Shown here piece by piece: positions 24,661 through 44,754 of a DNA stretch of 64,000 nt (position 1 is its first letter; each line of letters begins with the position of its first letter). The notes under the pieces were generated by a model. It had not been told where the DNA came from. It made no database searches and saw nothing but the letters and a program-made list of their open reading frames with translations. The position numbers were made by a program, and so were the translations under genes. Source of the DNA: Blepharisma stoltei ATCC 30299 (taxonomy: Eukaryota; Protista; Ciliophora); the NCBI GenBank assembly GCA_965603825.1, contig CBFDEM010000050.1, forward strand, positions 372,001 through 436,000, read 5' to 3'.

Positions 24661-24867
24661 TAAATAACCTAGTTATAGTTTTTAAAAATATAAATTAAAC
24701 TTGATTTTCGTTATTTGTGTGTGCTTCCCGGCCATATTTAACTTTTTATTTAATTTGTCTTATTAAATCAGTCCGTAAAGGTATCAATAAATTGGTATGG
24801 ATAAAATAATTTAAGAGATAAGAAATTTAATGCTCTTGAAGCTTATTTTCAAGGCAATTTCACTTCT

Positions 24868-26130
24868 TTCTAAACAAAAATATAGATGAGATATACTTTT
24901 GGCGTTAAAAATATAATATATCGAATGAAACTTAGCTTAATTTTGAATTTCGATTATCTTAAATATTAATGTCTAAAGAATCAAACTTGCTATTGTGGGC
25001 AATCGCAAATATGATCTTCTCTTTCATGATTTCTGGAGATGTATAAGCTGGCAGCTCAAGTCTGAATATAACATTGTCGATAATAGGAATCAATGTATTC
25101 ACAGCTCCAGATTTACTGTGCTTGGCTATTGTAAATTTATGAGGCCAATCCCACTCAATAAGCTTAGACCTTCTGGCAATATAGTCAATAAATTTGGCAA
25201 GCTCACTTTCTTTTAATGATTTTATTGCTCCCCAGAAGTTTTCTATATGCAGGTCTGTTCTTAAGCAATTCTCGTAAACGGTGTTTTCTTCTAAGACTTC
25301 TAAATTGATTTCTTGATTAAGGCATATGAGTTCACGTAGTTGAGCAGCTGTGAATAGGTTCAATTTATCAATAGGAATAACAGCAGCCATACCTTTCCTT
25401 ATAGAACCGTAAGCTTTAGGATTTTCAAATAATTTGTGCTTCTCTAATAGATCGGCATAGTGGTCAACATTTTCAAAAGTAACGTCAATTTTGGCTCCAT
25501 CTTCACAAAGGTCCACAATTTCTTCACCGTATTTTACTATAAACTTCTCAGAAATGTGCTGACCGTAGTTTTCCGAAGTAATTCCATAGGCTTCAAGGTT
25601 CCTTAATTTATGCAAAAACTTGTAGAGTGGCAAGTCAAAGTCTCTTAAATCTTCGGTTGTGAAAATTTTCCAAGAGTTCTGAATAGGTGCTTGTGAGCTG
25701 GGAGAGTGGATGTTGGATTTATCATTCAATTATCTCTTCCATTGCCTACATTAAGGACGTTATTTTGAGATGAAATCATAAGAGGAAGTATCGGAGATTG
25801 AAGCTCTTTAGAAAGTTCTGTCAATAATTCATTATACTTGCCTGCATCATCTTGGATTCCTTCTGGCTTGTATGCAAATTTGAACAATCTTGCAGGATGT
25901 CTAAGAGTTTTATTTGCTGCTGCTTCCAAGGCTCTGCTTATTTGACTAAACATTGAAGCAGTTGAGGAATGATCAACTTCCCCTTTATCTTTTATTTCTT
26001 GTGCTTTAGCTTTATCAATAGTAATGTCAATTCTGCAGTCCGTTTTAGACATACCAAGATGGATTTCCAATCTTTCCTTCTTAAATCTTGATAATAAATA
26101 ATACTTGGCCTTCTTAATAAATTTCATGAG
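24868..26130 (-). pseudogene. Duplicated 3' fragment of the HECT-like gene, with its 3' flank
   Basis: Matches 27229-28572. Carries an ~82-bp frameshifting deletion near 25665 (FGSAIR..LLYEN lost). Homology stops abruptly at ~26130, where the integrase begins. Confidence 0.88.
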
Positions 26131-27143
26131 TACAAGGTCTCTATTGAAGAGGAATTCGCAGATTCTGCGAAGATTACATTGGAAATTGCTTTGCATGTTC
26201 GATTGAGTTTAAAAAAATTGTAAAGCATAATGTTAAAATTCAAATTAAGTCTACTAGACCTTTGGAAAGAGTCCAAATATAGGAATTGCCCGAGGATGGC
26301 GCTATCTTGCGCCATCCTCGGGCAATTGGTATAGACTTGTTTGAACTTACTGAAGATTTGAGCAATGCGTCTAAATATAATTACATTTTATTAATCATTG
26401 ATCATTTTTCGAAATATGCTGCTGCGCATACTATGTTTGCAAAATCTGCTGAAGAAGTAATCAATAGCCTAGAAACAATTATTAATTCATGACCTGATAA
26501 TCCTTTTATCATTCAGAGTGATAATGGAGGTGAATTTTGCAATAGTCTTATTGATGGATTTTGTGAAAGATACTCCATTAGGCACATCACTAGTTCTCCT
26601 TACAATCCCCGTGCCCAAGGCACTGTAGAAAATTTTAACAAGTATCTCCATCATTTATACTTTAGCTGAGCTGATAGCACGCTTAAAGATAAATGAAGCA
26701 TACATGGTTCCATCTTCTCTATTATTCAGAATTACAATCGCTGCAGGAAGCATACAATAACTGGCTTTATACCAACTGATGTATTTTTCGCAAAAGACGA
26801 AAGTATTTATGCATCTGTCACTGAAAACGTTGAAAATAAAAGAAAGAATACTTTTGAGCCATTAAATAAAGCTTTTCACCAAGGCGATAAAGTAATTGTT
26901 CATGATCAACTAGTGAAAAAAAGATTTTGACTCAAATTGCCCAGACCAAGATTTAAATTGAACATGCGTTGATGCATTCCAGCAACAATTACCAATGTAA
27001 AATGCGGTTATTTAGAAATTCTTTTAGACTGTGCTGTTGAAAATGTTGGCGATGTTAATAGTTTATGGCTAATTTCCTTAAGAGATGTGAAGCCTGTAAC
27101 ATTTGATAAGTGGAAAATATGCATGAATAAGCAGAAAAAATAA
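26130..27143 (+). mobile_element. 5'-truncated retroviral-type (rve) DD35E integrase, Ginger/Polinton/Gypsy-like, interrupted by a 54-bp insertion
   Basis: With TGA=W: LYWRGIRRFCEDYIGNCFAC (CxxC half of the HHCC Zn finger), IKSTRPLERVQI[insert]DLFEL, YILLIIDHFSKY, IIQSDNGGEF, then exactly 35 aa to the E of SSPYNPRAQGTVENFN, YN..KHTITGFIP, FHQGDKVIV. TAA at 27141-27143. Confidence 0.92.
26278..26333. mobile_element. TA-bounded palindromic insertion (IES/MITE-like), 54 bp net
   Basis: TATAGG-AATTGCCCGAGGATGGCGC-TATCTT-GCGCCATCCTCGGGCAATT-GGTATA: perfect 19-bp arms, 23/25 paired out to the terminal TAs. Removing 26280-26333 gives caa ata gac (Q-I-D). Confidence 0.8.
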
Positions 27144-27318
27144 GTAGTAAATTTTAGGATTTATTAAGTCTGATGTAATTTAATAATAATTTGATATGAT
27201 GCATCTCATTAATTGCTACTTAGCTCATTCCTAAACAAAAGCATAGATTAGATATAATTTTGGCGTTAAAATATAATATTGTGAATTAAACCTAATTTTG
27301 ATTTTAAATTTGATTATC

Positions 27319-30300
27319 TTAAATATTAATGTCTAAAGAATCAAACTTGTTATTGTGGGCAATCGCAAATATGATCTTCTCTTTCATGATCTCTGGAGAT
27401 GTATAAGCTGGTAGCTCAAGTCTGAATATAGCATTGTCGACAATAGGAGCCAATTTATTCACAGCTCCAGATTTACTGTGCTTGGCTATTGTAAATTTAA
27501 GAGGCCAATCCCACTCAATAAGCTTAGACCTTCTAGCAATATAGTCAATAAATTTGGCATGATCGCTTTCTTTTAATGATTTAATTGCTCCCCAGAAGTA
27601 TTCAATGTGCGCATCTGTTCTTCAGCAATTCTCGTAAACGGTGTTTTCTTCTAGGACTTCTAATTTGACTTCTTGATTTAGGCATATGAGATCACGTAGT
27701 TGAGCAGCTGTGAATAGGTTCAATTTATCAATAGGAACAACAGCAGCCATACCTTTCCTTATAGAATCGTAAGCTTTAGGATTTTCAAATAATTTGTGCT
27801 TCTCTAGTAGATCAGCATAGTGGCCAACATTTTCAAAAGTAACGTCAATATTGACTCCGTCTTCACAAAGGTCCACAACTTCTTCACCGTATTTTACTAT
27901 GAACTTCTCAGAAATGTGCTGGCCGAAGTTTTCCGAAGTAATTCCATATGCTTCAAGATTCCTTAATTTATGCAAAAACTTGTAGAGTGGGAAGTCAAAG
28001 TCTCTTAAATCTTCAGTTGTGACGTTTTCGTATAGAAGATGCTTAAATACAATAATAGGGAGTGAAAGTCTCAGCCCTTGCTTGGTACGAATTGCAGAAC
28101 CGAAGAATTTTCCAAGAGTGGTGAATAGGTGCTTATGAGCTGGGAGAGTGGACGTTGGATTGATCATTCAATTATCTCTTCCATTGCCTACATTAAGGAC
28201 GTTATTTTGAGATGGGATCAAAAGTGGAAGTAATGGAGATTGAAGCTCTTTAGAAAGTTCTATCAATAATTCATTATACTTACCTGCATCATCTTGGATT
28301 CCTTCTGGCTTGTATGCAAAATTGAACATTCTTTCAGGATGTCTAAGAGTTTTATTAGCTGCTGCTTCCAAGGCTCTGCTTATTTGACTAAACATTGAAG
28401 CAATTGCAGAATGATCAGCATCCCCTTTAGCTTTTATTTCTTGTGCTTTAGTTTTATCAATAGTAATGTCAATTCTGCAGTCAGTGTTAGATTCATCAAG
28501 ATGGTTTTCCAAGTTTTGCTTCTTGAATTGTAATAATAAATAATTCTTGGCCTTCTTAATAAACTTCATGAGAGAGTTTTCTGGCTCGTCTGCTTCAGTG
28601 TGCAAATCGAACAGATAGAAGTAATTTTGGAATCTTAAGCAGAAGTTAAACAAAATTTCTTTCAAATTATACAGCTCTGCCTCTGATAATTTTTGTAAGT
28701 CTGGATAATAAATTAACTCTTCTGGAGAAATATTCAATGAAGTGTTTTCCAGTATAGTATAGAAACTAATATTATTGATATCCAGGTAGCCATCCATGAA
28801 TTCAATGAACTGCTGTGCTATGCCATTTTTGAAAAACTTGGAATAGGTAGGCTTGTAGTTTTCTCTCCAATTTTCTCTGTCATCAGCTGATGCAAAGCTC
28901 AAATAGGAATCAATGAGTTTGGTATTTCTTCCTTTGAAATTAGGTGTTAAAGAGAACTTATAGCCCCAGAATTCAGTTTCTTGTTCAGAGTCAATTCTCA
29001 TAAGATCAATACCAGCAGGGTATTTTCCTGTATTACCGATTGATAAGACTTGGTTTTCTTCTGATAAGACACCAATAAATTTGAAGCAGTCTTCAGAGTC
29101 TTCGATATTAAGAGCTACTTTGACAGTGTCTAGCAATTTTTCATTCTTATAAAAGGCAATTTCGTTTTTATCAAAATCTATATAGCTCCCAATGACGTCG
29201 TTCTGGTCATAGCTCACGCTCTCTGCGCTACCAATTTTTCCATTACTATAATAAATTACAGTTTGCTCACTTCCTTCAATAGTGTTCGCATTAATCAAGC
29301 TCTTCTTGGTAAAGCCAACTCCTACAGATCCTTTTGATTCTACAGAGACTTCGATGTAGTATTTGCCGTATCTCATTTCAGCTTCAGTTTCGTGGCAAGT
29401 TTTATCACTTGTTGACTTTGTGACAGTAGTTTTATTCGCGTTGAGTACAGCTCCATTCTGATTGCTGTCCCATAAATGCTTAATGTTAGCAGTTTTATGA
29501 ACTGGGATCCAAAAATAGACTGAGTCTCCTATAACATCAAATTTTCTTTCAGAAAGAGGTTTTGACCCAGCCATTCTTTCAACGCTAAGCACAGTTATGA
29601 CTTGATTTAAAGCACCAAAGCAGACCACTGGGGTGACAGAAGAAGCAATCCCCGTGAACTTGAAGACTTCAAGAGTTCCATTAAAGAAAGTCAGTTCTCT
29701 TAAGTTCATATCAATAAACATTGTGATTACATCTCCCTGCTTAAATCCTTCAAACCCATCTTTGGACCATTCTTTCTTGTGAACTTCTCCAGTTCTTTTC
29801 CAACTCCATACATTATGAGGACAGTCGCATCCTATGTACTCATTTAGATCATAATCTTGGACATCCTTTTCTGTCCTATAAACACCAATGTATCAATGAT
29901 CAGAGCCTCCATCAGATTCTATCTTGAATTTGATACTCACTGTACCATCAGAGTAGTCTTCAGACCAAATTGCGTTGCCCCATCCAGAACCTTTGGCTCT
30001 GGTAACTTGTGAAGTTCCTTCTGAAAAAGTGACTTTCCTGCCACAAGGCTCTTCCCTCCATCTAGCATCGCTTATAGCTTCAATTTTCTTTTCCTCGACT
30101 AATTTCTTACCATATTCGTCATAGCTGAAAATAGCTGTGTCTCTTGGGTCGAGGCTTGAATTTGAATCGAAGACAATACTAATAAAAGAAGCACCAGGAA
30201 TTTGGATGAATTCTTTTGTGGTTTGCCTAATATAAGGATGCTTGGACTCATAAATTCTTCCGAGGTTGCAAGTAACCTTTTTCTTGAATGATTCGAATAA

Positions 30301-33300
30301 GAAAGTTTCTAGCAGCTCATCCTTTTCGCTTAGACCTTTAATGTCAGAGACTAGTTCACAAAATTCCATAAACCAAAGTTCCTCTCCAGTAAGTTGGAAT
30401 TTATGTGAAGCATCTTCTAACAGCCTTGCAGTTGCTTGCATTAAACTATTATCTACTTTATATTCGGTCATAGCATTATTAAGCTCATTTGCTTGAGCAA
30501 TCAAGATGTTAAGAATATTTTTGAGCAGTGGGCCTTTCTGATCTCTTATGATCTTATTCAAGATTCTTACAGAGTCAAGCTTCAAGTCCAAAGTGCTTGC
30601 TGAAAGAGAATGCAAGAAAATAGGCTGGACACATCTAGGATGCGTTAGTTCCATAAATTCTTTAGGTATTGGGTCCATTTTTGAAATCTTATTTAGCATC
30701 CAAATTGCAGGCCAAGGATTATCTGTTGCAGAAACTGGGCTTTCAGGAATCACGTCAAACTTATATCCCCAACAGTTGCCTGATCCATCAGAGTGAAAAT
30801 ATAAATAAACAACTTCTCCTTCTACTTCAAATGGAGCCCAGTTTGCTTCTCCTAATCCTGAATAACGTTTAATTTCATCAATTCATCCTGGATTCTTAAA
30901 AAATCTTAAAGGATCACAACCAGTTTCGGTGTCACATTGTGGATCAAACACAAAACTGAGCTTTTTAGCTCTAGGAATTCTGATTTCTTGATCTAAATTC
31001 ATATTATCATCATATGGATGGTGGCTTTCAATTGTCAATGGAGCCAGAGGTCCTTCTTGCTTTTCTGTGTTGATCAAGGATCTAAGAATCCTTTCTAGGC
31101 AGTCCTTGAAAAGCGTGTCCTTGAATTTCGGATTGTCTTGAGAAAGTAAAGTATCAATCGTTTTAGCAATTTTATTCACAGAACTTCCTAAGAAATAGAA
31201 TAATTTGGTGATACTGAATTCCTCAGCTATTGTTGCAATAGAGGTTGGACATTTTTTGATGAGCATTAGAGCAAGAATTTTGTATGAAGCTTGCTTTGAG
31301 GAATCCATAAGCTTATAAAAGTGACTGAAGAGCTCTTGAATAGACAGATCCTTGAATTGGTCTTCTTGAACTTTTCTTTCGGTATTTTCTGCAGTTTCTA
31401 ATAATCCGCATAGTGGCATTTTAGTTGAATTCATCCTCTTGAATGGTGTAAGCGCGCAATTCAAAGCAGTATCACTTATCTTTACAGCTAAAAATAAGAC
31501 TGATTTCTTTCATAAGTTATGGCCAAGATTTATTTCATTGCCTTCACCATCTTTAATTATCTTATAGCCAAATGGTACTTTTATTTTGTATATTGAAGAA
31601 GATTTGATGTAAATGACATCTTTTATGCAGAATTTTTCTATTTCTCCTTGCTTTACCCAGATGTGAGTCAAAGAGTCGCTGGCTTGGTCTTCAGGGTCAA
31701 AGTTACCTAAATCTGTATGATCTTTAACTTCTGTGCCTAGTGCAATGCTTGAGTAACCATTTCCAGTAGTCGCCTGCTCTTTTTTAGCGCATAAAATCAT
31801 TCTCTTTGGAATATTGAACTCTTTTTGTTTGCCATCTTCATAGATCGGAACTGCTGTAAATCCATTAGGGACTTCACGAATTGTTTTAACTAGTTTTAAC
31901 TCAGTGATGGCATCTTGGTTTAGAGAGCTAATGGTATTTTGGAAATCGTTCGAGAAATTCTGAGAAATGTAGTCTAAGCTAGACCTTAAGTCTCTGTCTG
32001 ATGATAGAGCTTGAGTTATTTGGCCTTCAGTCAAGCCTAAAAGCTTTAGTCTTAGCCTATCATGATTTTCAGATGCTTGAATGACTTTGAATGTTTTATA
32101 AATCTCGGCATCTTTGGATTTATTAACTTTGGTTGGTGCAGACTTGGTGTTTTTACCATCATATACTTCAAAAGTTAACAATGAAGCTCTTGTGCCAGCT
32201 TCCATATAAAGTCCATAAGCTCCCATTTGAAGACCATTAAATGCAGTTGCATCCTGCAGATTAATGCTTTCTTTGGTGTTTTCATTAATTATTCTGATTT
32301 CTCCATTTGCATTTAAATAAATTCTAACAGACAATATTTCACCAAGCTTAGCAGGGCCGACAGCAATACCATTGACTTTAAAGCTTGGCGATCCAGAGTT
32401 TGTGCTAACTCCTATATCTACTCCTCCAAGTTTGAGACCATATGACAACTGATTTTGATAGTGAATACCTTCTAACTGTGCTAGAATAGTCAAAGATTCT
32501 ACAAACTGTGTAGCGTTTCTGAATACAGACAAGTCAGGAACTACAGTTATTTCTTTTCTTGCTGTTGCGAAATTGTTATTTTCTATTACGAATTGGCTAT
32601 TTGAATTTTGGTAAATATCTGCATATCCAGCGATATCAGATATTTCAAGGTTTAAAGATTCAGTTTGCTGAAGCTTGAATAGCAGGCTTGATTTTGGCTC
32701 TTCTATTTTTCCAACAAATTCTAAAATCCCATTTTTATCCTTGATTCCTTTGTCAAGGCACTTAGCGATGATCTTTATCAGAATATTTTCTTTTGTCAGT
32801 TCTTCTATTAGGCATTTGGTTTGATTGCTAGCATTCGAAAACTTTTCCATTATTTCTTCATCTGTAAAGTCGTCATAAATGTATCCGTCTTCGATTGCAT
32901 ATAGTATTCGTCTAATAAGTAGCATCTTTTCTTTATTTTCTAAGATTTTAGTTTCAGCTTTAGCATGCTTCATGAGGGATCTCAATAAGTCTGTCCCTTC
33001 ATTGTCGCTAATGTCTTTCTTTTTTAAGATAAGTGTAATTATATGAACAATAACGTTTTCTAAGTGAGCATAAAGGGTTCTGAACGAAGCAGCTCTCTCA
33101 GATTTCATATCGAAGCACAAAAATTCTGAGCCAACTAAAGCAAACCACAAATTGATAACTGAGTCTTTAATGCTTTGCAGTTCATCTTGGTTAAGTATTT
33201 TCATTGCATTAAAGTTGTTAATCGTCCTTAAATAAGCAATGGACTTTATATTAACTGACACTGTCTCATCAGTAATAGGAGAATAAATCGCTACTGTGTC

Positions 33301-36300
33301 CCCATCAATTGCTCTTATTATGCATCTTTTCATATTAGAATCAATTAGTTTTGCTTCAGCCAGCTCAATTGGATCGTTCCCGAAAATATCAACCTGCTTC
33401 GAGAAAATTGCTAAAGCTTCGATTCCTCCAACTTGATACATAGGAAGTGCTTTTCCGTCTTTTAAGTTTTGGCAAGCATCGTTTAAGGATTCCATAATTG
33501 TGGTGAGCACCTCGTCTCTTCATTTTTCTACGTATATAAGTTCTTTCAAAAGCACAGTTGCTTCATAGCCACATCTGAAAAGTTTGCTTTTTGGATCTCT
33601 AAAGCCATACCAATAAGCCATTTTCCCAATTCTTTTAAGCAAAAATTGGACAAAATGGGCGCTTGTGCTTTCAGGGTTAAAGTGAGGAAGCCTAATCCAG
33701 ATTGCACCTAGTGTTTCAGCTGAGTGTTGGGATGGGAGAACTGCTTTGAGGATGCGAGAGCCGAGGGCAATGTTTCTTTCTGCGCTGCTCAGGAAAGTAA
33801 TTTTAAGGAGCTCTTCAAGATATTCTTCACGAGCTAAGAGACTGGAAATTGTATTTGATCCGAAGCACCCATAAATTGTCCACAATAGAGAAGTCATATG
33901 TTCACTTGAAGATTTTTTTTCTTTATATACTTCTAAACAGCTATCAGGAAGATCATCATACTGGAGAAGAGCCCACTTTAGCTCATGATAATAATCGAAA
34001 AACCTATTCTTGTCTTTAGCTATTGCATGCATTGCTACATACAAATCTAAATTGCCTTCCTCGTTTTTGAATTCTGCTGGGCAATCTTCTTGAACTTTGT
34101 AGCCTTGCACGATACCTTTGGTTTCTGTTAACTCGAAAAGATCAATAAATTGTTGGAAAGATTTTCCTTGATGTTTAGAATTGAAACTTGAAACAATATT
34201 TTTATATATTGTTTCAATATTACAGAAATCATAAGATAAAGCTGCTTGCTCAAAATCTTCTGGGATTTGAGCCCAGATCTTGGAGTGGCCAATATAATGC
34301 TGATCTTCTTTAGAAAGTGCATCTTTCATAGCATAGAGTGAATTAATATATTTAAAGAAATCGAAATTTCCTTTAGAATTTTTGTAAGCATCTTGGCTTG
34401 AAAGGAGTTCTGAGCACTCCGGATCAAGTTTCGAAATTTCAGCAGGAGTTAAAACTCCTTTCATTGCAGGATCAACTTTAACGACTAAATCGTTAATCGT
34501 TTCCTTCAGCAAGGATTCTTCTAGTTTTTCAGTATCTTTATTAAACTGCCTGATCCATTCTTGCATTGGATTCTTTTTAAAAGCTTTGATAGCGTTCATT
34601 TTATTTACCCATAACTCCCCTGAAACTGTTGCACTAAGATTTAGATCTGAGTTGCCCAACTCCAATAGCGATTGATCCCATTTTAATTCATTAAAAACTG
34701 AATTCAAAAACAAATCTTGGACAGTCTGTTTGACAAATGAATTACTTTGGCTTACATTGCCAACTACACTAAACACTAAAAACTTATAAACAGCCCATGC
34801 TGCTCTGCATAATCTATCTTTAAGTTTTTCTCTTAATTTCTTTTCAACTTCTGATTCATCACATAATAAATCACAATAAGTCCTGTACTCTAATTCAAGG
34901 CTCTCCTGGATATTGACCAGAAATTGATCTTTTGCACTTGGCTCGCTCTTTTTGATGAAAATATGTTTGGATTCTCCATTCTGAGTGAACTGACCTAAAT
35001 TCTCATATCCTTCAATTTCTTCAGATGTGATTTGGAAATCTACAACAGGAAGTGCTCTTTTGCGCTCAATAATTAAATAAAGATTCTGGCTCTCTCCTTC
35101 TCTGGTTTCTAAGAGAATTTTATCAACATCGTCAGATATATCAGCTTCTTTCAATATTTTGAATCCTGTAATGCATTGCTCCAAAAGGAATGGTTTAGTC
35201 TCAACTTCTTCTCCTATATAGCCTTTAGACCAATTCAATAAAAGAGAAATGATAAGTGGGAACTGTTGCTCTACTATCATAAGATTATCAGGCTCTTTTA
35301 ATGGAAAGCATAACGCATCTAAAACAGTCAAGTAATGAGAGTATGAAGATTTTTCTATGGCTTCTGTTTTGGATTTGAGCAGCTCCCTCTGCAAGTATCC
35401 ATAGATGTTATAAAATGACTTTTGGACACACTTTAATAGGCTTGAATTAATTCCTTCCACATTTTCCCAATAATGGAATTTTACATTGTTTTGCTTCAAA
35501 GAGTCAACAAAGAATCTTATTAGTGAAGTTTCTTTTTTAGATGATAAGCTCATTAAGTTTCCTAAGCTGGAAAGTCCAAGAGCTCTTGCAATAGCTTTCG
35601 CTCTTCTTTTCTCAATGGTGTCCACAATTTTTTCAGCTGAGGCAGGAGTTTCGAATAAAGAAACAATAAATTCAGATATCTTTTTGATTTCTTTAACGTT
35701 CTTTGAGCGGCTTTCTTCTTCACTTATACTCCTTCCAAGTATGGCAACTAAACGTGAAGTTACTGCAACTTCTTCTTTGGCTTCCTTCCATTTGCTTTCA
35801 TTTCTTTTCATTTTAGGAATGCTGGCTTCTTGGTCTACATTTGCTACAAAATTTTTCATTATTTTAGTAATCCCAAGCTCATTTAATCCTTGATTATGCT
35901 CCGAATTGATTAATAAAGCGCATTTAAATACAACATCTTTAGAAACCTCTTCAAAGGTCATGGTAACAGTTTCCTTCAATTTTTGGATGTACTTATCAGC
36001 CCATTTTCTATAGTTGACTGCATCTTTTACGAGGTATTTGACTGTAGATTCAACACTTGTAGGATCTTGAAGAAGGTTTTTGAAAGTCCCAGCAAATTCA
36101 AAGAAAATTAGATAAACAGCGAAAATAGCTCTTTCTGCTTTATCAAATTCTGGTCTTCCAATTGCTGAATCTTCTTCGCTAACTCCGCTCAAAGTTTTCA
36201 GGGTGTTCCAATCTCTTACAATTTCGCTATTCCCTTCAATGAAATCGTTGACAAACTGATTGTCTGAGTACTTTACATCTCCCCATTTTCCAAAAGAGTC

Positions 36301-39300
36301 AATATACTCTTGCAAGGTCAGCTCTGATTTATTATTGCATACAAGCTTTTTAGTAGGATCGCTTCTAATAAACTGGTTTAACATCTTAGGCTTAACTTTT
36401 TCTCCAATTCCTGGCACCTGTGTAAGGCTAATCAAACTTTCTGGGATAGGGTTTTGAGGTTTAACAAGTGACAAAGTCTTATCAGAAATTCCGTATTTAA
36501 GCAGTGGGTTTTGAAGCAAAGCTCTCACTTTTTCATCTTCTGGTGTTGTCTCAAATTCTCCTGAAATCAATTTTACGCTGATAAACCCAACCATAATTCC
36601 TGCCGCATCTTTTGTGGTATCTGGCCATTGTTTAGCATAATAGTCAGCTGGAATTTCACTGAAAATATCAATTTTTCAGCCCCAATAGTTGACTGAGCGA
36701 TCTGAGTGGAATGTGAAGAATAAATATGGAGCATTTACTTCGATTCTTTCTCCATTCTTTGGGAAATCATCTCCGTCTCAAATGAAGAGCTTTTCTGCTT
36801 TTTTATCGTCTTTCCAAAGCTCTAAACAATCAGCAATCTTCTCGGTTTTGCATTGAGGGTCAAAGACCAAATAATATTTTCTTGCTCCAGGAATCTTTAC
36901 AGTGTGGGTAATATCAAGATTGTTATTGTAATTGTGACTACTTTCGTAAGGATCTGTTGTAACTGTAACCCAGCCTTTATTTAGGATTTTTGGCTTTGAG
37001 CCAAAGTGTTGTAGAGATATTGTGATGCTCTGCAAAACTGGTAAAATTTTTGCCAAGAAATCAAGGCTCATTCTGGTTAAAGGCAACATGTAAAGAAGAG
37101 TCTCTAATAAATCTGCGAGGATGGTTTTGCTGATTGCGTTTGTGAGTTCATCTGACAATATAGACCCTTTTTCTTTTGCTTTCACAACCCTAAGAACTTT
37201 TTCACAGTTCTGGAAAACACTTAATGAGTAATTCGTTAAGATTTCTTGCCATTTTCCTTTGAAGTTAGACTTAGCAGCTTGGCCGAATAAAGCAATTTGA
37301 CTTGTTTCAAGAAGTTTCAAAATTCCAACAGAGGTCTCTTCTCCTTTCACAAGTTTCTTGGAAATTTCTGAAGAAAGCTCAATCAAGTACTTGAAATAAG
37401 TTTCCACTAAATGCTGAGACTCGTCATTAATAAGTTCTAATGCTGGGAAAAGTTTGTCAGGTCGAGCCATTTCTAAGAAAATTCTATCTTCAAGCTCTTT
37501 AAAGATACCTGATATCTCAACTCCGTCCATTTGATCTTTAAGTCTATCTAATAAATAAGACAATTTCTCCTGTGGGTCCTTATAAAAGACAGAAAAGCAC
37601 GATGTCACAATTTTTGTGGCCTCCTCAGAAGCCTTGGATCCTGGCATACTAGTTATTAGATCCATAGCGATTTTCATAATTCTTGTTCTTAGCTGTCTTT
37701 CTAAAGTTGCATTTGGAATCATATCCGACCCAATTAAGTGCGATCTGGTGAGTTTTAGCACATAGACTAGCATTTCTGAATAAATTTCTTTGGATTCTCT
37801 TTCAATATTTTCTGAGTGAATCTTTTCAATGCAAGTCAAAGCCAATTTTTCTAAAATTTCGACAGTTTCATTCTTGATGTCTAGGGTAAACCCCATTCTT
37901 TTTTCAACATTCACCTTTTTCTTTTCTAATTTTTCTATGATACCGTCATTTAAGATGTCAAACGATTTAAGAACATAGTGTGTGAGCTCAAAAGGCTTCA
38001 TTTGGAGATAATCATCAGCCATTTCTCCAGTTTTGATAGCTCTGTAAATGCTTAAATCTTCAAGCTTAAATTTTTTCCAATAGTTTTCAACTTTTATGCG
38101 AGCTATGTCTGGCATATCTAAGGGATTATAAATAATTTTGTGTTTGCTAATTCCTCCAAGGCACATAAAAAGTTTCATACTTTCAGGAAGATCTCTAATA
38201 GCTCCTTTGGGGTCTTCTTTTCCGTTGTGAAAGAAAAGAACTGTGCGCTCATCCATATCCAGCAGAAGTCCAATTTTGTCACCAACTACGTATTTTTCGA
38301 AGGTGTACAATTGAGTAGTACCTTTGCACATACTTCCGTCAGCTTTATAATAGAGAGCAAATGACTGTTCTTCAGGGGTCGTGTCGAGGTTAGGATAATT
38401 TCCATTACAAGCTCCATAATAAATATTATTAGTTGAACCTTGAGTCCAAATCATCTCACAATAGTGAACCCCTTTTGTCCAAGCTTCTGTTGAAAGAACG
38501 GCTCCCCAGCCATCATAATTTGTTCTGCTTAATACATCTGGCTCGTCGCTACTGATTTCCATGCCTTTCCCTTTTTTTTCAGTCTCCCAAGCAAAAGAAT
38601 TACTTGCTTTTTTCATAAGGTCGTTAAAGCTCACTAGCATAGGAAAAATTTGTTTATAAATTGGAGAATGATCTTGACTTGGGTCAAAATTGGCAAATGT
38701 TAAAGCTAATACTAAAGCGGTACACAAATTTCCTGTAGCAACATAAAGCCCAAAAAGAATAGAATAGCAGGCATTTATGTCTTCTTCTTGGATATTTGGC
38801 AGCTCTCTTCTTAGCATTGAGTTGAAAAATGCAAGAACTGATGAAACTACTTGAGAGATCGAAGGATCTTTGTCGTTCAGTGTCATTGGGCTAAGACCAG
38901 AAACTATGCTTGAAGCAGATTCTATGATAATCTTATAAAGTTCAGGCTTGTCAGAGCCCAAAATCTTAATTATCCCAAACAAAGAAGACAGACCAAAAGA
39001 TAGCCCTGATATGGCAATTGGGCTGAGGGTTTCTTTAGTATTTGAAGCTCCTGGCTTTGATTTTCTTTTTTCACGCTCATCCATTCTAAGTAGAGCTTCA
39101 TAAGTTCTGCTCAGGTATTGTAGCTTTTTCACCATCTCAACTGAGCTTGAGTCTTCCACTCTACGTAGGTCAATTTCATTCAGTAAGTCTTGAATGACTT
39201 TTGTGTGCCTTTCTTTGATAAAGCTTTTATCTTCCATACTGCACAACATTTGCTCTTCATTTATGTAGTTCAGGTCTTCAAGCTTGGCTGAGGCAGATGA

Positions 39301-39474
39301 TGATGAACCTGGGACCTTATAATTATTGAGGTCATCTAGGTTTAATAGAGCACCATGATTGAAAAACAGTTTTTGGTCGCCAAGAATGCTCAGATCTCCC
39401 TTCAACTCTTTTTCTAGAGCTTCAGAAGTTAAACCTGACACACGAGTTGCTATGCTAGTCGCTGCGTTACCCAT
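27319..39474 (-). CDS. Giant SPRY/CUB-like/UBA-like/HECT protein (HERC/HECTD4-like), 4051 aa, catalytic Cys replaced by Ala; copy B
   Basis: Seven track ORFs lie in one frame, joined only at TGA; ends TAA at 27319-27321. HECT N-lobe (RMFNFAYKPEGIQDDAGKYNE..ELQSPLLPLLIP..RDNWMINP..LGKFFGSAIR) and C-lobe (FWGAI..PIVDNAIFRLELPAYTSPEIMKEKIIFAI). Three SPRY-like and three ESxHxY CUB-like units. N-terminus MGNAAT is myristoylation-like. Confidence 0.9.
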
Positions 39475-40513
39475 TAATTATTTTTGATGACTGAAAATGG
39501 TCCAAATATCAATAGGTAATAAAATCTGCAAAAAATTATTAAAGTCTATTTAAGTAAAATCTTTAAATCTCCTTCCAGCTCTTTTTCTTGGGCTTAAGGA
39601 GATAGGACTGACGCACCTGCAACAAAGGTGGTAGCTACGCTATCTTAAATTATTATCCATAAGAGAAATATGGATAAGATGTATGCTATAATAAAATCTA
39701 TTTTGATTTCCATAAATTATAAAATTGACAAATTTGCTTTGGAAAGACTTAAAAAAGTATAAATAATTCAGAATAATATAATTATTTATATTGGATTTTT
39801 AAATGCTAGTTAATACTATATTTGCTATAAGAAATACGATAACATTGTCCATAGGCTATGCTTCGTAACTTATAAATGAATATGCTATGATTTAAGGCTT
39901 TACCTCTGTGATGATAATGCCTTTCCTAATAAAAGTAAAATTAACTAAATAAAGGATGACTTCCAAGATCTTGAATTGATGGGATTTGCATTTTCTTCCT
40001 AGCTGATGATAAAATCCTTTTCTAAGTCCGCTTAGATGCATAATAAAAAAATATTGATAATTGGGAAGAGGAGAATTAAATGTTTTAAAAATATATATAC
40101 CTAATAAAAATTAAAAATTTTAAAAAGAATTTTTCGAGGATTTTATTTGTTACTTATATGATTTTCTATGATAAGATTTTACGTTTTTATCATATTTTTA
40201 TTTAGCCACTCAAGCAAAAAAATTTTTAGCTAAAATTTTAGCATTTCTTTATTCGAAATTAACCCTCTGCTGCTCCTATGTTCTTTATGTCAAAGTTTTA
40301 CATACAATAAAATTGTTTGCTTGGAATTTGAGTTCGTAGATGGGAATTTTTGATGAATCAACTTAAACTTTAAGACTTTTATCTAAATTCTCAGAAAGAA
40401 TTTTATTAAGTTTTATAATTATTTCTAAATATTATAATAGATAGAGAAATTAGAAGCAACTTTTATTTGCGTGTTATAATAACCTAAAACCTTAATAGAA
40501 ATAAATTCTAAAA

Positions 40514-41745
40514 ATGAGCACTAGGTAAAGGATTTGTGATGGGAACAAAGGTTTCCAGCAATCAATAGACCCAGAACTCCAATTCAAGCAAGAGAGCATC
40601 AGATTTAGCTTCGCCGCAATAAGTGTTTCGAGTTCAGCAAGAAACGACGCTTCGCTACTTCCCAAACTTTCTCCTTTTGATTTTTCTCCGATTTTATTTC
40701 ATTCCGTCCTTATCTTCAAAAACTCCTTTCAAAAAGCAAATAATCCTTGAATTCTGCATTGAAGAAATAACACCAAATCAAGCATTATCAAAGAAGCCTT
40801 TTATATTACTCGGAAACTATTAGAATTGATTTCTGAAGACTCAGACCTCGACGTTTATGTGGAATTAAACTACATCCCAGTGTTTATACATTGTTTAAGT
40901 CAAGAATGTCCTAAAGAAATTCAGTTTGAATCTTCCTTTGCTTTGTGTTGATTTTACACTTTTGATCATAAATATGCGGAAATGCTGAGAAGAATGGAGC
41001 AATTAGAGAATTCCAACTTGCAATCAGTAGAGACTATGATGAAGCCGCTAAAAATTGTATATAATATTTAGGAAATATCGCTGGGAATAATGAAAATATA
41101 GAGAGATTATTATTTCTGAGGGAACATTTGAATTTTTGATGGATGTGCTACAAAATATAAGTGTAAAGATTAACAACAACCCACAAGTGAATGGCTTGAT
41201 ATGGATGCTTTAGCAATGTTTCTTGAAGTGCAAATAAAATCCTTGGTTCAGAAAAGAAGTGTAGTGGACTCTAAGCAACTTTTAGTTGGACCTTCTGCAC
41301 ATGTAGAAAGAGTCGCTCGTCATTTAGTGATCCAGCTATCAATGAAAGTCTTAAAGATGAAGATCATGGTTCTAGAGTAGAATCTGGCTGGGTTTTCAGT
41401 AATCTAGATATTAGAGGAGTTCAGAATGCACTATTAGTCTCAAAAAAGAATGGGTATCTAAATTATTTACAAAAAGATCTCGATAAAGAGACCGACCTAA
41501 GCACTTTGAAAAATTTATTAGTAATTACAAAAAGAATTTTAGAGACAGCATCTATTAAGCCGCAAGAAGAAAAAAATGAACTCAATATTTATCTCAAGCT
41601 ATTTGAAAACTAAGAATGCTTAGCAGCTTTGCACAACAGCTAGACCACGGCAATAGCTTTGCGAATGAGTTTCTTTTAAATCTATTAAAGAATTTTTTGG
41701 TTATGAATAGATGGAGGAAGAACTTGATATTGAAAATTCATAATT
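40514..41745 (+). pseudogene. Importin alpha pseudogene (copy B)
   Basis: ATG AGC ACT AGG TAA premature stop, multiple frameshifts and an internal deletion of ~300 bp near 41250, relative to 8311-9894. Confidence 0.92.
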
Positions 41746-41774
41746 TAATTAATTTTATGGTAAATGAATTTATT

Positions 41775-42120
41775 TCTAAGCTTATACTCTTGCTGAAGGC
41801 TTTTTTTTAAAATCAAATCAGAATATCTTATTGCCAATAGAAAAGCAGGCACTACTTTTGTCAAATTTATAAATATACATTCAAGATTTTGGACATTTGA
41901 AACTCAGAGAATTTTAACTCGAAAATATTGCCTGGTGAAATTCATAAATAATGCCTTCTTCTATAATGTACATATGTTTTTTTTTGCATATATTTTTCTT
42001 TCTTCCTTGAAATAGTTTTAGATAACTCCTGCAGTAGCTATTACAATTAATCATATATATAAAGCAGGAATGGCTAGATCTAGAAATAAAATTTTATCTT
42101 TAATTATCTTATGACAATAA
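41775..42120 (-). pseudogene. Kelch-family gene remnant (copy B)
   Basis: Aligns by eye to 9925-10030 and to 10360-10700; no open frame. Confidence 0.65.
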
Positions 42121-42389
42121 AGTGAGCCTTCATACAGACTTCTAAGTCCCAAAGATATTAATAAAAACTCAAAATTTAACGCTAAAAAAATTCATTATAG
42201 ACTTATAAGGGTCTATTTTTATATGAAAAAATACATAAGAGAAATAAGGGCGGAAAAAACGCTCCGCTGCTTATTCTTGTAGAAATATCAATAGCTTATA
42301 TAAAGATAAATAGAGGAGTTTAACTTTTGCCTGGCCAAATAATTTGAAAGAAAAATTATATTCATATATAATTATTAGTATCATCTCTC

Positions 42390-43153
42390 AGCATTAATTT
42401 CACAAATATTACTAACAATTACTCTTGCTACTTCGAAAAGTTTCTACGCGATTTCCCTTATTTTTTAACAATTTATTTTTATATAATCAACTAAATTGTA
42501 TAACCTGAAACCGGAACTCCTCTTCTCATTAGATATACATAATCAGCAATTTCTTTGCTCGCAATAGGCAACAGAATTAAAGGAGTTATGCAGTTATTAA
42601 CGGAGCCTTCATTTTCGAGAAAACATTATACATTAGAACTTTCCAATAAATCTGACTGAATATAAAATTGGCATTGGTATTTACATGAGATTTATTGTTT
42701 TTCCAATTATTTTTTCAAACGCTTCATAGTTTCCATAATAAATTGAGCATCTAAACAAGGACAAAGAAATCAAAGATTTTTCAAATGAGTTTTTACTGTT
42801 AAAAGATCTAAATGATCTAGCAGTATGGCAATGATGCAATATTTTACAAGTTGAGCAATAATATTTATTCTTCAGTGCTTTTAATTTTTAGTGCTTGACT
42901 TAATATCATAAAAACCTTTTTCTGCCAAAAAATGGACTGGTGTTTTCCCAATAAGATCTTGCAGAGTGATCAGTAGGGAACCGAATTTAAGAAATAGTAG
43001 AGGCACTAAGAAAGCTCTATTAGCAATAGCAAGACGACGAAACAAATTGAGAAGGAAATTGTATTGAAATTGGATATTACCAGCATTAATCAGATAAAAC
43101 TGAACTTCTTCATTACTTACACCTGAGTATAATAGATCTAAATCTTTTTCAAT
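42390..43153 (-). pseudogene. Ankyrin-repeat gene remnant (copy B)
   Basis: 42390-42905 matches 21790-22340, then jumps to 23660-23915. The ATG is mutated and most of the gene is deleted. Confidence 0.85.
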
Positions 43154-43302
43154 TCATCTATCTATTAAAATCTACTAAAAAATCATCAATTATATTGCAT
43201 ATCACCACAAAATATAAATCTATGATTTTTTATAATGTAAATTGAATATACGCATTTTTAACATTAAGTCACCATTTACTTCACCAGAACTATACATAAT
43301 TT

Positions 43303-44754
43303 ATGGGTCACGAGGATTTACTTCCGAAATCTTTTAACTCCAAAATCGTCTGAAAGCTCACGCTCAACGCTACCATCGGTTCCTTCCTTTTCGGCTACAA
43401 TATCGGTGTTTTTAACTCAAATCAAGAAAATATCGCCGCAACATTAGGCTGAGGGGACAACAAAGACCTTTACATTTCCACCATGGCGGCCACTCTTCCA
43501 CTAGGTGGCTTAGTAGGCTCTTTATATGCAGGGTCTTTAGCAAATAAAGTAGGCTGCCGTAAAGCCCTGATGATTACTGACTTCATAAACATCTGTGGAA
43601 GCCTTTTTTTTCTAATCCCATACACAGCTACATTTGGTATTGGAAGACTTGTGACAGGATACTCTTCTGGATCTTTTAGCACTTTATGTCCTTTGTATAT
43701 AGGAGAAATTTCTCCTCCAGAGGTAATGGGAACTATGGGGAGTTTGACAGCTCTGATTATAGCTTTAGGTGTCTTGGTAGCATTTATCTTGGCACTTCCC
43801 CTTCCTACTGGAGACTATAACTCAGACGTCTTCAATTACTGGTGGATGTTTATGTTCGTTTTTCAAGCCTTTTTTGCATTAACTCAGCTATTTATATTAT
43901 GGAAGGTGTATAGGCTGGATACGCCTATACGGTATTTACATAAAGATATAGAAGAAAAAGCCTTAGAAAGTCTGCAGCAGGTTTATACAGAAGAAGAGGC
44001 TAATAAAACATTAGAAAAATTGAAATTCAGCAGAAATGATAGAAGCACATTAAGCGAAATGGATAGTGTAGAGACAGCAGGAAAAGACCAGAACTTAAAA
44101 AATGATGAAGATTTTACGTATTCTGAACTGATTTGTTGTGTAAAGCCGATAAGAAAGAAAATCAGGCTTGGGATTGCTATAAGCTTTTTACAAGTTGCTG
44201 GAGGAGTAGATGCGCTTTTTACGTATACAGCCAAAATTTTTAGGGAGCTTGGAGGAGGGGTATTTGAGTCTAGAATTTATACAGCGGTATTTGGATTAGC
44301 CAATCTTGCGTCTGTTGTAGTTGTGATTTATATTGTAGAAAAACTTAAAAGAAGAACTCTTTTAATTTTCGGCAATGCAGGAATGGGTATTGCTATGGCC
44401 TTTCTAGGCATTTTTGCCTCAATTCTTTCAGATGCAGGACCAATCCCTCCTTTATTTTTTATGTTTTTATATGTATTTGCATTCAGCAATGGCATCGGTA
44501 CAATTACTTATGTTTATTGTGGGGAGATTTTGACTTCTCGAGCTATGAGCATTTGCATGGCGATTAATTGATTCATGATAGCTTTTGTTATCTTTACTTT
44601 TCCTCATATGGTCGCATTAATGACTATAGGGGTTTCTTTTTGGGTGTTTGGAGTTGTTTGTGGTATTGGGATTCTATATTTCCTTATAGAGTTTGTAGAG
44701 ACAAAAGGGCTGGATGCGGAGCAGATAAAGGCGGCGTTTGATAAATACAAATAA
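43303..44754 (+). CDS. MFS sugar porter (GLUT-like hexose transporter), 483 aa
   Basis: GSFLFGYNIGVFN, GCRKAL, IGRLVTG..PLYIGEISP, VEKLKRRTLL, GEI..RA..AIN-W(TGA), VETKG. Three in-frame TGAs; ends TAA. Confidence 0.92.

What the first reader, a model, noticed from the sequence alone, without database searches (positions are those of the whole stretch)
26278..26333. TA-bounded 54-bp palindrome plugs the integrase exactly at its first catalytic Asp: an IES-like removable lock
Seen: a GC-rich near-perfect hairpin (19-bp perfect arms, 6-nt loop, 23/25 pairs out to the terminal TATA) inserted between ..RVQI and DLFEL, adding an in-frame TAG. Excision from TA to TA leaving one TA restores RPLERVQIDLFEL in frame. 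Known: ciliate internally eliminated sequences and Tc1/mariner-type MITEs are TA-bounded, and IESs are removed leaving a single TA. Inference: a retained IES, a tiny palindromic MITE family, or a switch in which programmed DNA excision re-arms (or retention silences) an integrase. Caveat: this copy is also 5'-truncated, so any switch would matter only in full-length copies.
Basis: partly seen in the sequence, partly recalled or inferred. Interest (0 to 1): 0.88.

Follow-up and report, generated by a model that had tools for sequence, protein, structure and literature searches.

The report
Tiny palindromic transposon escaping genome editing
The hairpin is one copy of a 54-base repeat family found at many unrelated sites in this ciliate's DNA; it likely jumped by chance into an already broken integrase gene and likely stays in the working (somatic) genome because it is too short to be cut out, so it is unlikely to be an on/off lock.

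Summary
Observation confirmed, switch idea not supported. The hairpin (19-bp perfect arms, 6-nt loop) is a 54-bp, TA-duplicating insertion just before the first catalytic Asp of an H2C2-rve integrase remnant in a TGA=Trp ciliate (Blepharisma by inference). Public contigs show: (1) it is a repeat family of fixed length at many unlike flanks, far deeper in runs that look germline-rich; (2) an ~82%-identical integrase paralogue, enriched in those same runs, has the empty site, which proves insertion; (3) this copy sits at flank depth in 4 of 4 runs whose contigs enter it from both sides, with no excised form of this locus, and at least 3 other whole copies lie in contigs at somatic depth. The host is 5'-truncated and fused to a decayed HECT duplicate, so excision would re-arm nothing. 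Best reading: a MADE1-like micro-MITE below the 65-bp first IES size peak published for B. stoltei, likely carried in the germline inside longer eliminated DNA and left uncut in the soma. It may be an already catalogued but unprinted repeat family. Side find: a germline-enriched, Ginger-like integrase element that is uninterrupted at this site.

The parts
26278..26279 (.). Left TA (one copy of the duplicated target)
   Evidence: Sequence; paralogue has a single copy at the empty site (joint 26276>26331, skips 54)
26280..26302 (.). Left arm (23 bp; perfect 19-bp core 26284-26302); begins with the in-frame TAG at 26280-26282
26303..26308 (.). 6-nt loop; family members keep this length, rare 1- and 3-nt deletions
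   Evidence: tables 2, 4, 8
26309..26331 (.). Right arm; this copy departs from the family majority at 26328-26329
   Evidence: loose-end majority behind 26327 in X1, X3, X6 and X2, X4, X7
26332..26333 (.). Right TA (second copy of the target)
26133..26279 (+). Integrase remnant, 5' part: second half of the H2C2 zinc finger and linker; upstream part missing
   Evidence: Pfam Integrase_H2C2 positions 35-53 of 59, E 0.013, below the curated cut-off; paralogue contigs align from 26133 and go on 1,266 nt further upstream (table 8)
26334..27143 (+). Integrase core (rve) and C-terminal part, open under TGA=W; catalytic codons at 26334 (D), 26520 (D), 26628 (E)
   Evidence: Pfam rve E 3.5e-12; alignment A1
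24867..26130 (-). Decayed duplicate (about 92%) of the 3' end of the neighbouring HECT gene, abutting the integrase remnant
   Evidence: self-BLAST; Pfam HECT
27319..39477 (-). 4,052-codon open frame under TGA=W whose 3' end is the source of that duplicate

Best explanation
The hairpin is one copy of a dispersed 54-bp palindromic repeat family that inserted at a TA and duplicated it, likely a non-autonomous transposon (micro-MITE) moved by a Tc1/mariner-type transposase encoded elsewhere, and this copy likely stays in the somatic genome because it is too short for the host excisase. Shown: family of fixed length at unlike flanks; empty site in a paralogue; presence of this and at least three other copies at somatic-type depth; host gene truncated. 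Inferred: the organism is Blepharisma; the deep runs are germline-rich; most germline copies ride inside longer eliminated sequences; copies that land in somatic-destined DNA are not removed and persist only where they do no harm, such as this dead integrase remnant; the mobilising transposase is TA-specific. The hit next to the catalytic Asp is likely chance.
For: Summed contig depth over the hairpin 6,923 to 135,598 against about 100-500 in the integrase flanks (X3, X1, X6). Contigs only partly on the stretch: 21 of 58 (X2), 24 of 62 (X4), 36 of 113 (X12), 140 of 562 (X7), with low-agreement flanks starting at 26275-26278 and a shared TA-ending right terminus. Depth peaks over the loop and whole elements align without gaps, so members are not longer elements with a different centre. 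Three distinct contigs (462, 1,095, 11,969 nt) bridge a whole copy in both X2 and X4 at 0.8-1.9 times this locus's depth (table 8; table cut, so a lower bound). Paralogue contigs (27 differences in 144 nt, 15 in 101 nt) skip exactly 54 nt. Hairpin depth over own-locus depth rises 105, 404, 1,648 as paralogue over own-locus rises 0.05, 1.26, 4.22 (three runs only). Published B. stoltei IES lengths have a first peak at 65 bp and none reported at 54, although predictions of 50 bp and more were kept (10.1101/2022.05.02.489906, sections 4 and 25 passages); residual IES retention in somatic DNA is at most 0.02 (PMC9942856 passage), against about 1 here.
Against: No transposase partner with these ends was found or could be searched for (no genome held). 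'Germline-rich' and 'somatic' labels for the runs are inferred from assembly sizes and the paralogue's depth, not from records. Summed contig depth is no copy number. Whether germline copies are nested or stand-alone was not seen. This copy carries two end substitutions, which could by themselves explain failed excision. Species identity is inferred (nearest named homologue is only 54% identical).
Confidence: 0.65

Rival explanations
1. The family is an ordinary excisable mobile IES (MITIES): most copies are cut out TA-to-TA as stand-alone 54-bp IESs, and this copy is a retained one because its right end has mutated or because retention in a dead gene is harmless.
For: TA-bounded; strongly enriched in the deep runs; its end matches 10 of 11 letters of the boundary signature published for ~153 and ~174 bp IESs; two substitutions in this copy's right end; palindromic IESs are known in B. 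stoltei (376 of 39,799).
Against: No 54-bp peak is described in the main text (first peak 65 bp); at least three other whole copies are also at somatic-type depth.
Confidence: 0.2
2. Programmed lock: developmental excision re-arms, or retention silences, the integrase.
For: Insert abuts the first catalytic Asp, adds a stop, and a clean TA-to-TA removal restores the frame; the rest of the core is open with D..D35E intact.
Against: No own-flank excision contig in 8 runs; the longer paralogue has no insert, so full-length copies are not locked; host copy lacks its 5' part; the same palindrome sits at many unrelated sites; position within chance (3 of 77 TA sites). A lock removed only in the soma would also switch a transposase on in the nucleus that is not inherited.
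Confidence: 0.04
3. The palindrome is a miniature of the Ginger-like integrase element itself and is moved by that integrase.
For: Both are enriched in the same runs; Ginger2 prefers AT-rich TATA-type targets (PMC2836005 passage).
Against: Ginger ends follow TGTNR and make 4-bp (TDD 5-bp) duplications; this element starts TAG and the empty site allows only a 2-3-bp repeat. The ends of the paralogue element were not seen.
Confidence: 0.06
4. One-off template switch or assembly artefact.
For: Single copy within the 64-kb window.
Against: Zero-mismatch entry from both flanks in four runs of two studies; many other sites hold the same element; the arm sequence is not copied from local DNA.
Confidence: 0.01

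Closest known systems
MADE1 (Hsmar1-derived MITE, human)
   Same: Whole element is two terminal inverted repeats around a 6-bp spacer, a near-perfect palindrome (PMC1784062, abstract and passages).
   Different: MADE1 is 80 bp (2 x 37 + 6) with a known parent transposon; this one is 52 bp plus TA (2 x 23 + 6), parent not identified, no sequence relation tested.
Blepharisma MITIES and palindromic IESs (BogoMITE; rnd-1_family-87 and -160)
   Same: Same genus by inference, TA-bounded, palindromic, enriched in germline-type DNA; end resembles the published ~153/174-bp IES boundary signature.
   Different: Described ones are IESs of about 153, 228 or 389 bp that are removed from the soma; this unit is 54 bp, under the 65-bp first peak, and several copies are at somatic-type depth. 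Families 87 and 160 are not given as sequence in the main text, so identity with either is open.
Ginger1 / Ginger2-Tdd DNA transposons (for the host integrase)
   Same: H2C2 plus Gypsy-type DDE core with D..D35E; one database relative carries PF02338 (OTU) with H2C2 and rve (P0006), a domain known from Ginger1.
   Different: Terminal repeats and target duplication of the host element not seen; relatives only 24-31% identical apart from the B. stoltei paralogue; no tree built.
Rickettsia palindromic elements (in-frame peptide insertions)
   Same: Length is a multiple of three and 4 of 6 phase-orientation readings of this copy are free of stops. The comparison is recalled; only a search listing was seen.
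   Different: No protein carrying the element's peptide was found in either open phase tested.

Membership tests
MITE | Short, non-coding, bounded by terminal inverted repeats | tested here: met
   52 bp plus TA, 23-bp arms
MITE | Target-site duplication against an empty site | tested here: met
   Paralogue skips exactly 54 nt with a TA/ATA repeat; one locus only
MITE | Many copies of uniform length at unrelated sites | tested here: met
   Ungapped whole copies and unlike flanks in X2, X4, X7, X12; copy number not measured
MITE | Autonomous partner transposase with the same ends | not testable with these tools
   No genome held; read-laying returns only 30 letters of flank
Tc1/mariner-type element | TA target duplication | tested here: met
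   TA specificity of mariner/Tc1 from search listing PMC5481204
Tc1/mariner-type element | Ends shared with a DD34/35/37(D/E) transposon | tested here: inconclusive
   By eye the arms differ from the two printed B. stoltei TIRs (Bogo, BstTc1); other families not available
Blepharisma IES / MITIES | Bounded by a TA-containing direct repeat | tested here: met
Blepharisma IES / MITIES | Absent from somatic DNA (retention at most 0.02) | tested here: not met
   Insert-bearing contigs at flank depth in X1, X2, X3, X4; no own-flank skip; run type inferred; rare excision not testable on contigs
Blepharisma IES / MITIES | Length within the described IES range (peaks from 65 bp) | tested here: not met
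   54 bp against first peak 65 bp; tail below 65 bp not seen (figures not held)
Ginger MITE (palindrome) | TGTNR termini and 4-5-bp duplication | tested here: not met
Ginger transposon (host integrase) | H2C2 plus Gypsy-type DDE core | tested here: met
   (H2C2 below cut-off, partial)
Ginger transposon (host integrase) | TIRs with TGTNR ends, 4-bp duplication, no reverse transcriptase | not testable with these tools
   Paralogue contig sequence beyond the aligned part is not returned

The most novel reading that the evidence does not exclude
Blepharisma harbours an abundant 54-bp all-palindrome transposon, two thirds the size of MADE1, that lies below the host excisase's size floor: it multiplies inside longer eliminated sequences, and every copy that lands in somatic-destined DNA is stuck there. 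It would be a natural example of the 'MITE that cannot become an IES' branch of the published model and a built-in ruler for the minimum excisable length.
Probability: 0.4. Interest if true: 0.65.

Novelty: new variant of a known kind. Interest (0 to 1): 0.42.

Why it matters
The published model for Blepharisma says a MITE that the domesticated excisase cannot remove should be purged (10.1101/2022.05.02.489906, Fig. 7 legend), and gives no example in the sections read. A fixed-length family just under the shortest IES class, found both in germline-type DNA and uncut at somatic sites, would test that directly and bracket the excisase's minimum substrate between 54 and about 65 bp. If instead stand-alone copies are excised, it is the shortest mobile IES class in this genus. 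The dramatic reading, an excisable lock on an integrase, is not borne out.

Tried and rejected
Own genome: none held. Rfam on 25800-27400: 1 match, MIR390 at 21.5 bits against a 77-bit threshold, a generic hairpin score. ARAGORN: 0 tRNAs in the window. Other copies in the window: none (best unrelated match 29 of 56). Arm in viral contigs: 0; whole element in plasmids: no match; arm in the 32 metagenome loci fetched with the integrase: 0 of 32; those loci are distant (26-43% over the main matches) and were not studied further. In-frame peptide insertions in proteins: one open phase gave no candidate, the other gave 2 hits, both unrelated tandem-repeat translations; weak negatives, reverse orientation not searched. 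Expression: no RNA holder listed on record; run X8, RNA by guess, had next to no cover over the insert and low cover of 26495-27164; not used as evidence. X12 held the family but not this locus's flanks; a hole proves nothing, not used. Earlier findings: 5 look-ups, nothing. Splice rescue considered by eye and dropped: the only GT..AG pair round the TAG spans 12 nt and would also remove V-Q-I. Literature: 'Blepharisma + palindromic + internally eliminated' 1 paper; 'Blepharisma + integrase' 2 papers, neither on this (listing only); 'integrase' and 'rve' occur 0 times in the main texts of 10.1101/2022.05.02.489906, PMC9942856 and 10.1101/2021.12.14.471607; ciliate + tRNA + internally eliminated + SINE 1 unrelated listing. 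Supplements of these papers could not be read and may list both the repeat family and the integrase. PMC9808624 passages show that IESs nested inside other IESs exist in Paramecium; no direct bearing on size.

Full report
Observation. The hairpin is as described: arms 26278-26302 and 26309-26333 pair at 23 of 25 positions, 19 of them a perfect GC-rich core round a 6-nt loop. It folds at -27.3 kcal/mol, z -9.6, with 0 of 200 shuffles as stable, and is the only copy in the window. In the integrase frame it adds TAG and 17 more codons between RVQI and DLFEL; alignment with seven relatives shows an 18-column insertion directly before an invariant Asp, with D65, D127 and E163 (D..D35E) all present. 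Of the in-frame deletions tried, only the four equivalent registers of a 54-bp removal restore Q-I-D.

Organism. Open frames of 3,000-4,000 codons appear when TGA is read as Trp with TAA and TAG as stops; Pfam finds eukaryotic domains (HECT, ubiquitin-UBA-XPC, Kelch; 7 proteins scanned); window GC is 34%. B. stoltei uses this code and has a 41-Mb somatic genome of 66% AT (10.1101/2021.12.14.471607, passages), and the nearest named homologue of the integrase is a B. stoltei protein at 54%. Blepharisma is therefore inferred; the species is not shown.

The host gene is already broken. The remnant starts inside the H2C2 finger (profile positions 35-53 of 59, below cut-off) and abuts a 92% duplicate of the 3' end of the neighbouring HECT gene (24867-26130 against 27228-28572). 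Paralogue contigs align from 26133 and continue 1,266 nt upstream in both X1 and X6 (table 8), so this copy lacks a long 5' part.

The palindrome is a family. Eight of 13 listed runs were laid; all are contigs, not reads. Over the hairpin the summed contig depth is 29,794 (X1), 6,923 (X3) and 135,598 (X6) against about 100-500 beside it. At 5-base resolution the excess runs from about 26274 to 26333 and peaks over the loop in X7, X12, X4 and X2. Contigs only partly on the stretch number 140 of 562, 36 of 113, 24 of 62 and 21 of 58; their loose ends begin at 26275-26278 with low agreement (0.38-0.68), and on the right the majority continues with a short TA-ending terminus before diverging. Whole copies align over 51-57 nt without gaps and with 3-7 differences. 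So the unit has a fixed length and lies at many unrelated sites. Summed depth overcounts and is not a copy number.

The empty site. The only 54-nt skip is in one contig per run in X1, X3 and X6, with 27 differences in 144 nt and 15 in 101 nt, so it is a paralogue of about 82% identity and not an excised form of this locus. It shows that the insertion duplicated TA (exact repeat ATA). The 21 listed differences inside the integrase (a subset; 216 rows not shown) touch 19 codons, 8 silent and 11 changed, none a stop.

This copy stays. Zero-mismatch contigs run from each flank into the hairpin at flank depth in X1 (94.8, 131.6), X3 (84.1, 97), X2 (63.3, 60.7) and X4 (94.3, 104.2), and no joint across this locus's own flanks is listed in any of the 8 runs. 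Three further contigs (462, 1,095 and 11,969 nt) bridge a whole copy in both X2 and X4 at 0.8-1.9 times that depth (764 rows not shown). X2 and X4 assemble to 43-44 Mb, close to the published somatic genome, so they are read as somatic; X6 and X7 (82-84 Mb) as germline-rich. This labelling is inference. Paralogue-to-own depth is 0.05, 1.26 and 4.22 in X3, X1 and X6, and hairpin-to-own depth 105, 404 and 1,648 (118 and 151 in X2 and X4): both elements rise together, on three points. Published residual retention of IESs in somatic DNA is at most 0.02 (PMC9942856, passage).

Is the position special? The remnant has 77 TA sites; 3 lie within one codon of a catalytic residue, and at 23 the element in this orientation would give the same in-frame TAG. 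A 4% event, noticed after the fact in a gene already dead, needs no design.

Mechanism. Shown: fixed-length palindrome, TA duplication, dispersal, presence at somatic-type depth, truncated host. Inferred: mobilisation in the germline by a TA-specific transposase acting on the 23-bp arms; failure of excision because 54 bp is under the shortest described IES class. In B. stoltei the first IES length peak is at 65 bp and no 54-bp peak is described, although predictions from 50 bp up were kept (10.1101/2022.05.02.489906, Results parts 1-2 and passages of Methods). An abundant stand-alone 54-bp IES class should have shown as a peak, so germline copies are more likely nested in longer eliminated DNA. 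The same paper's model predicts that a MITE the excisase cannot remove is selected against (Discussion part 1); survival in nested and dead sites fits that. The main rival is that copies are excisable and this one fails through its two end substitutions.

Comparison. It is built like MADE1 (two 37-bp repeats and 6 bp; PMC1784062, abstract and passages) but smaller. It meets three of four MITE features and the fourth could not be tested. It fails two IES features at this locus (somatic absence, length class), so it is not filed as an IES. It fails the Ginger end and duplication rules (PMC2836005, passages). The paper names two palindromic repeat families without sequence in the main text; family 87 makes up about a quarter of the ~153-bp IES class, which a 54-bp unit inside many such IESs could account for, and the element's end matches 10 of 11 letters of that class's boundary signature. 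The supplement could not be read, so there is a real chance, about 40% by my judgement, that the family is already catalogued.

Verdict. Real element, real family, not a lock. New variant of a known kind; interest 0.42.

Noticed in passing
paralogue contigs aligned to window 26133-27091 (records 4, 12, 18): An H2C2-rve integrase element of at least 2,371 nt, uninterrupted at the insertion site, is 4.2 times this locus's depth in X6 and 0.05 times in X3, so likely a multi-copy germline-limited Ginger-like element; 'integrase' and 'rve' do not occur in the main texts of the three Blepharisma genome papers searched.
   Followed up: partly
loose ends behind window 26326-26327 in X7 (5 contigs) and X12 (10 contigs, mixed): Read by eye on the other strand, the continuation looks like a tRNA 3' half (B-box, T-stem, acceptor strand) followed by a run of six T; on this strand it resembles a primer-binding site. 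Some palindrome copies may abut a tRNA gene or a tRNA-derived repeat. Not tested by any tool.
   Followed up: no
loose end behind window 26329 in X1, X6, X7, X12: One recurring 55-letter continuation shares about 12 letters with the tRNA-like continuation; contigs with the same break point lie at somatic-type depth in X2.
   Followed up: no
window 26131-26132: A TA sits exactly between the end of the HECT duplicate (26130) and the start of the paralogue match (26133); it could be the scar of a developmental deletion that truncated the integrase, or chance.
   Followed up: no
window 1-24653 against 32791-43965: Large decayed tandem duplication (74-87% identity) covering a HECT gene and neighbours, with pseudogenised pieces in both units.
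   Followed up: no
protein P0002 (B. stoltei): A second annotated integrase of this family, 54% identical, begins right at the same DLFEL motif and ends early, likely another somatic remnant.
   Followed up: partly
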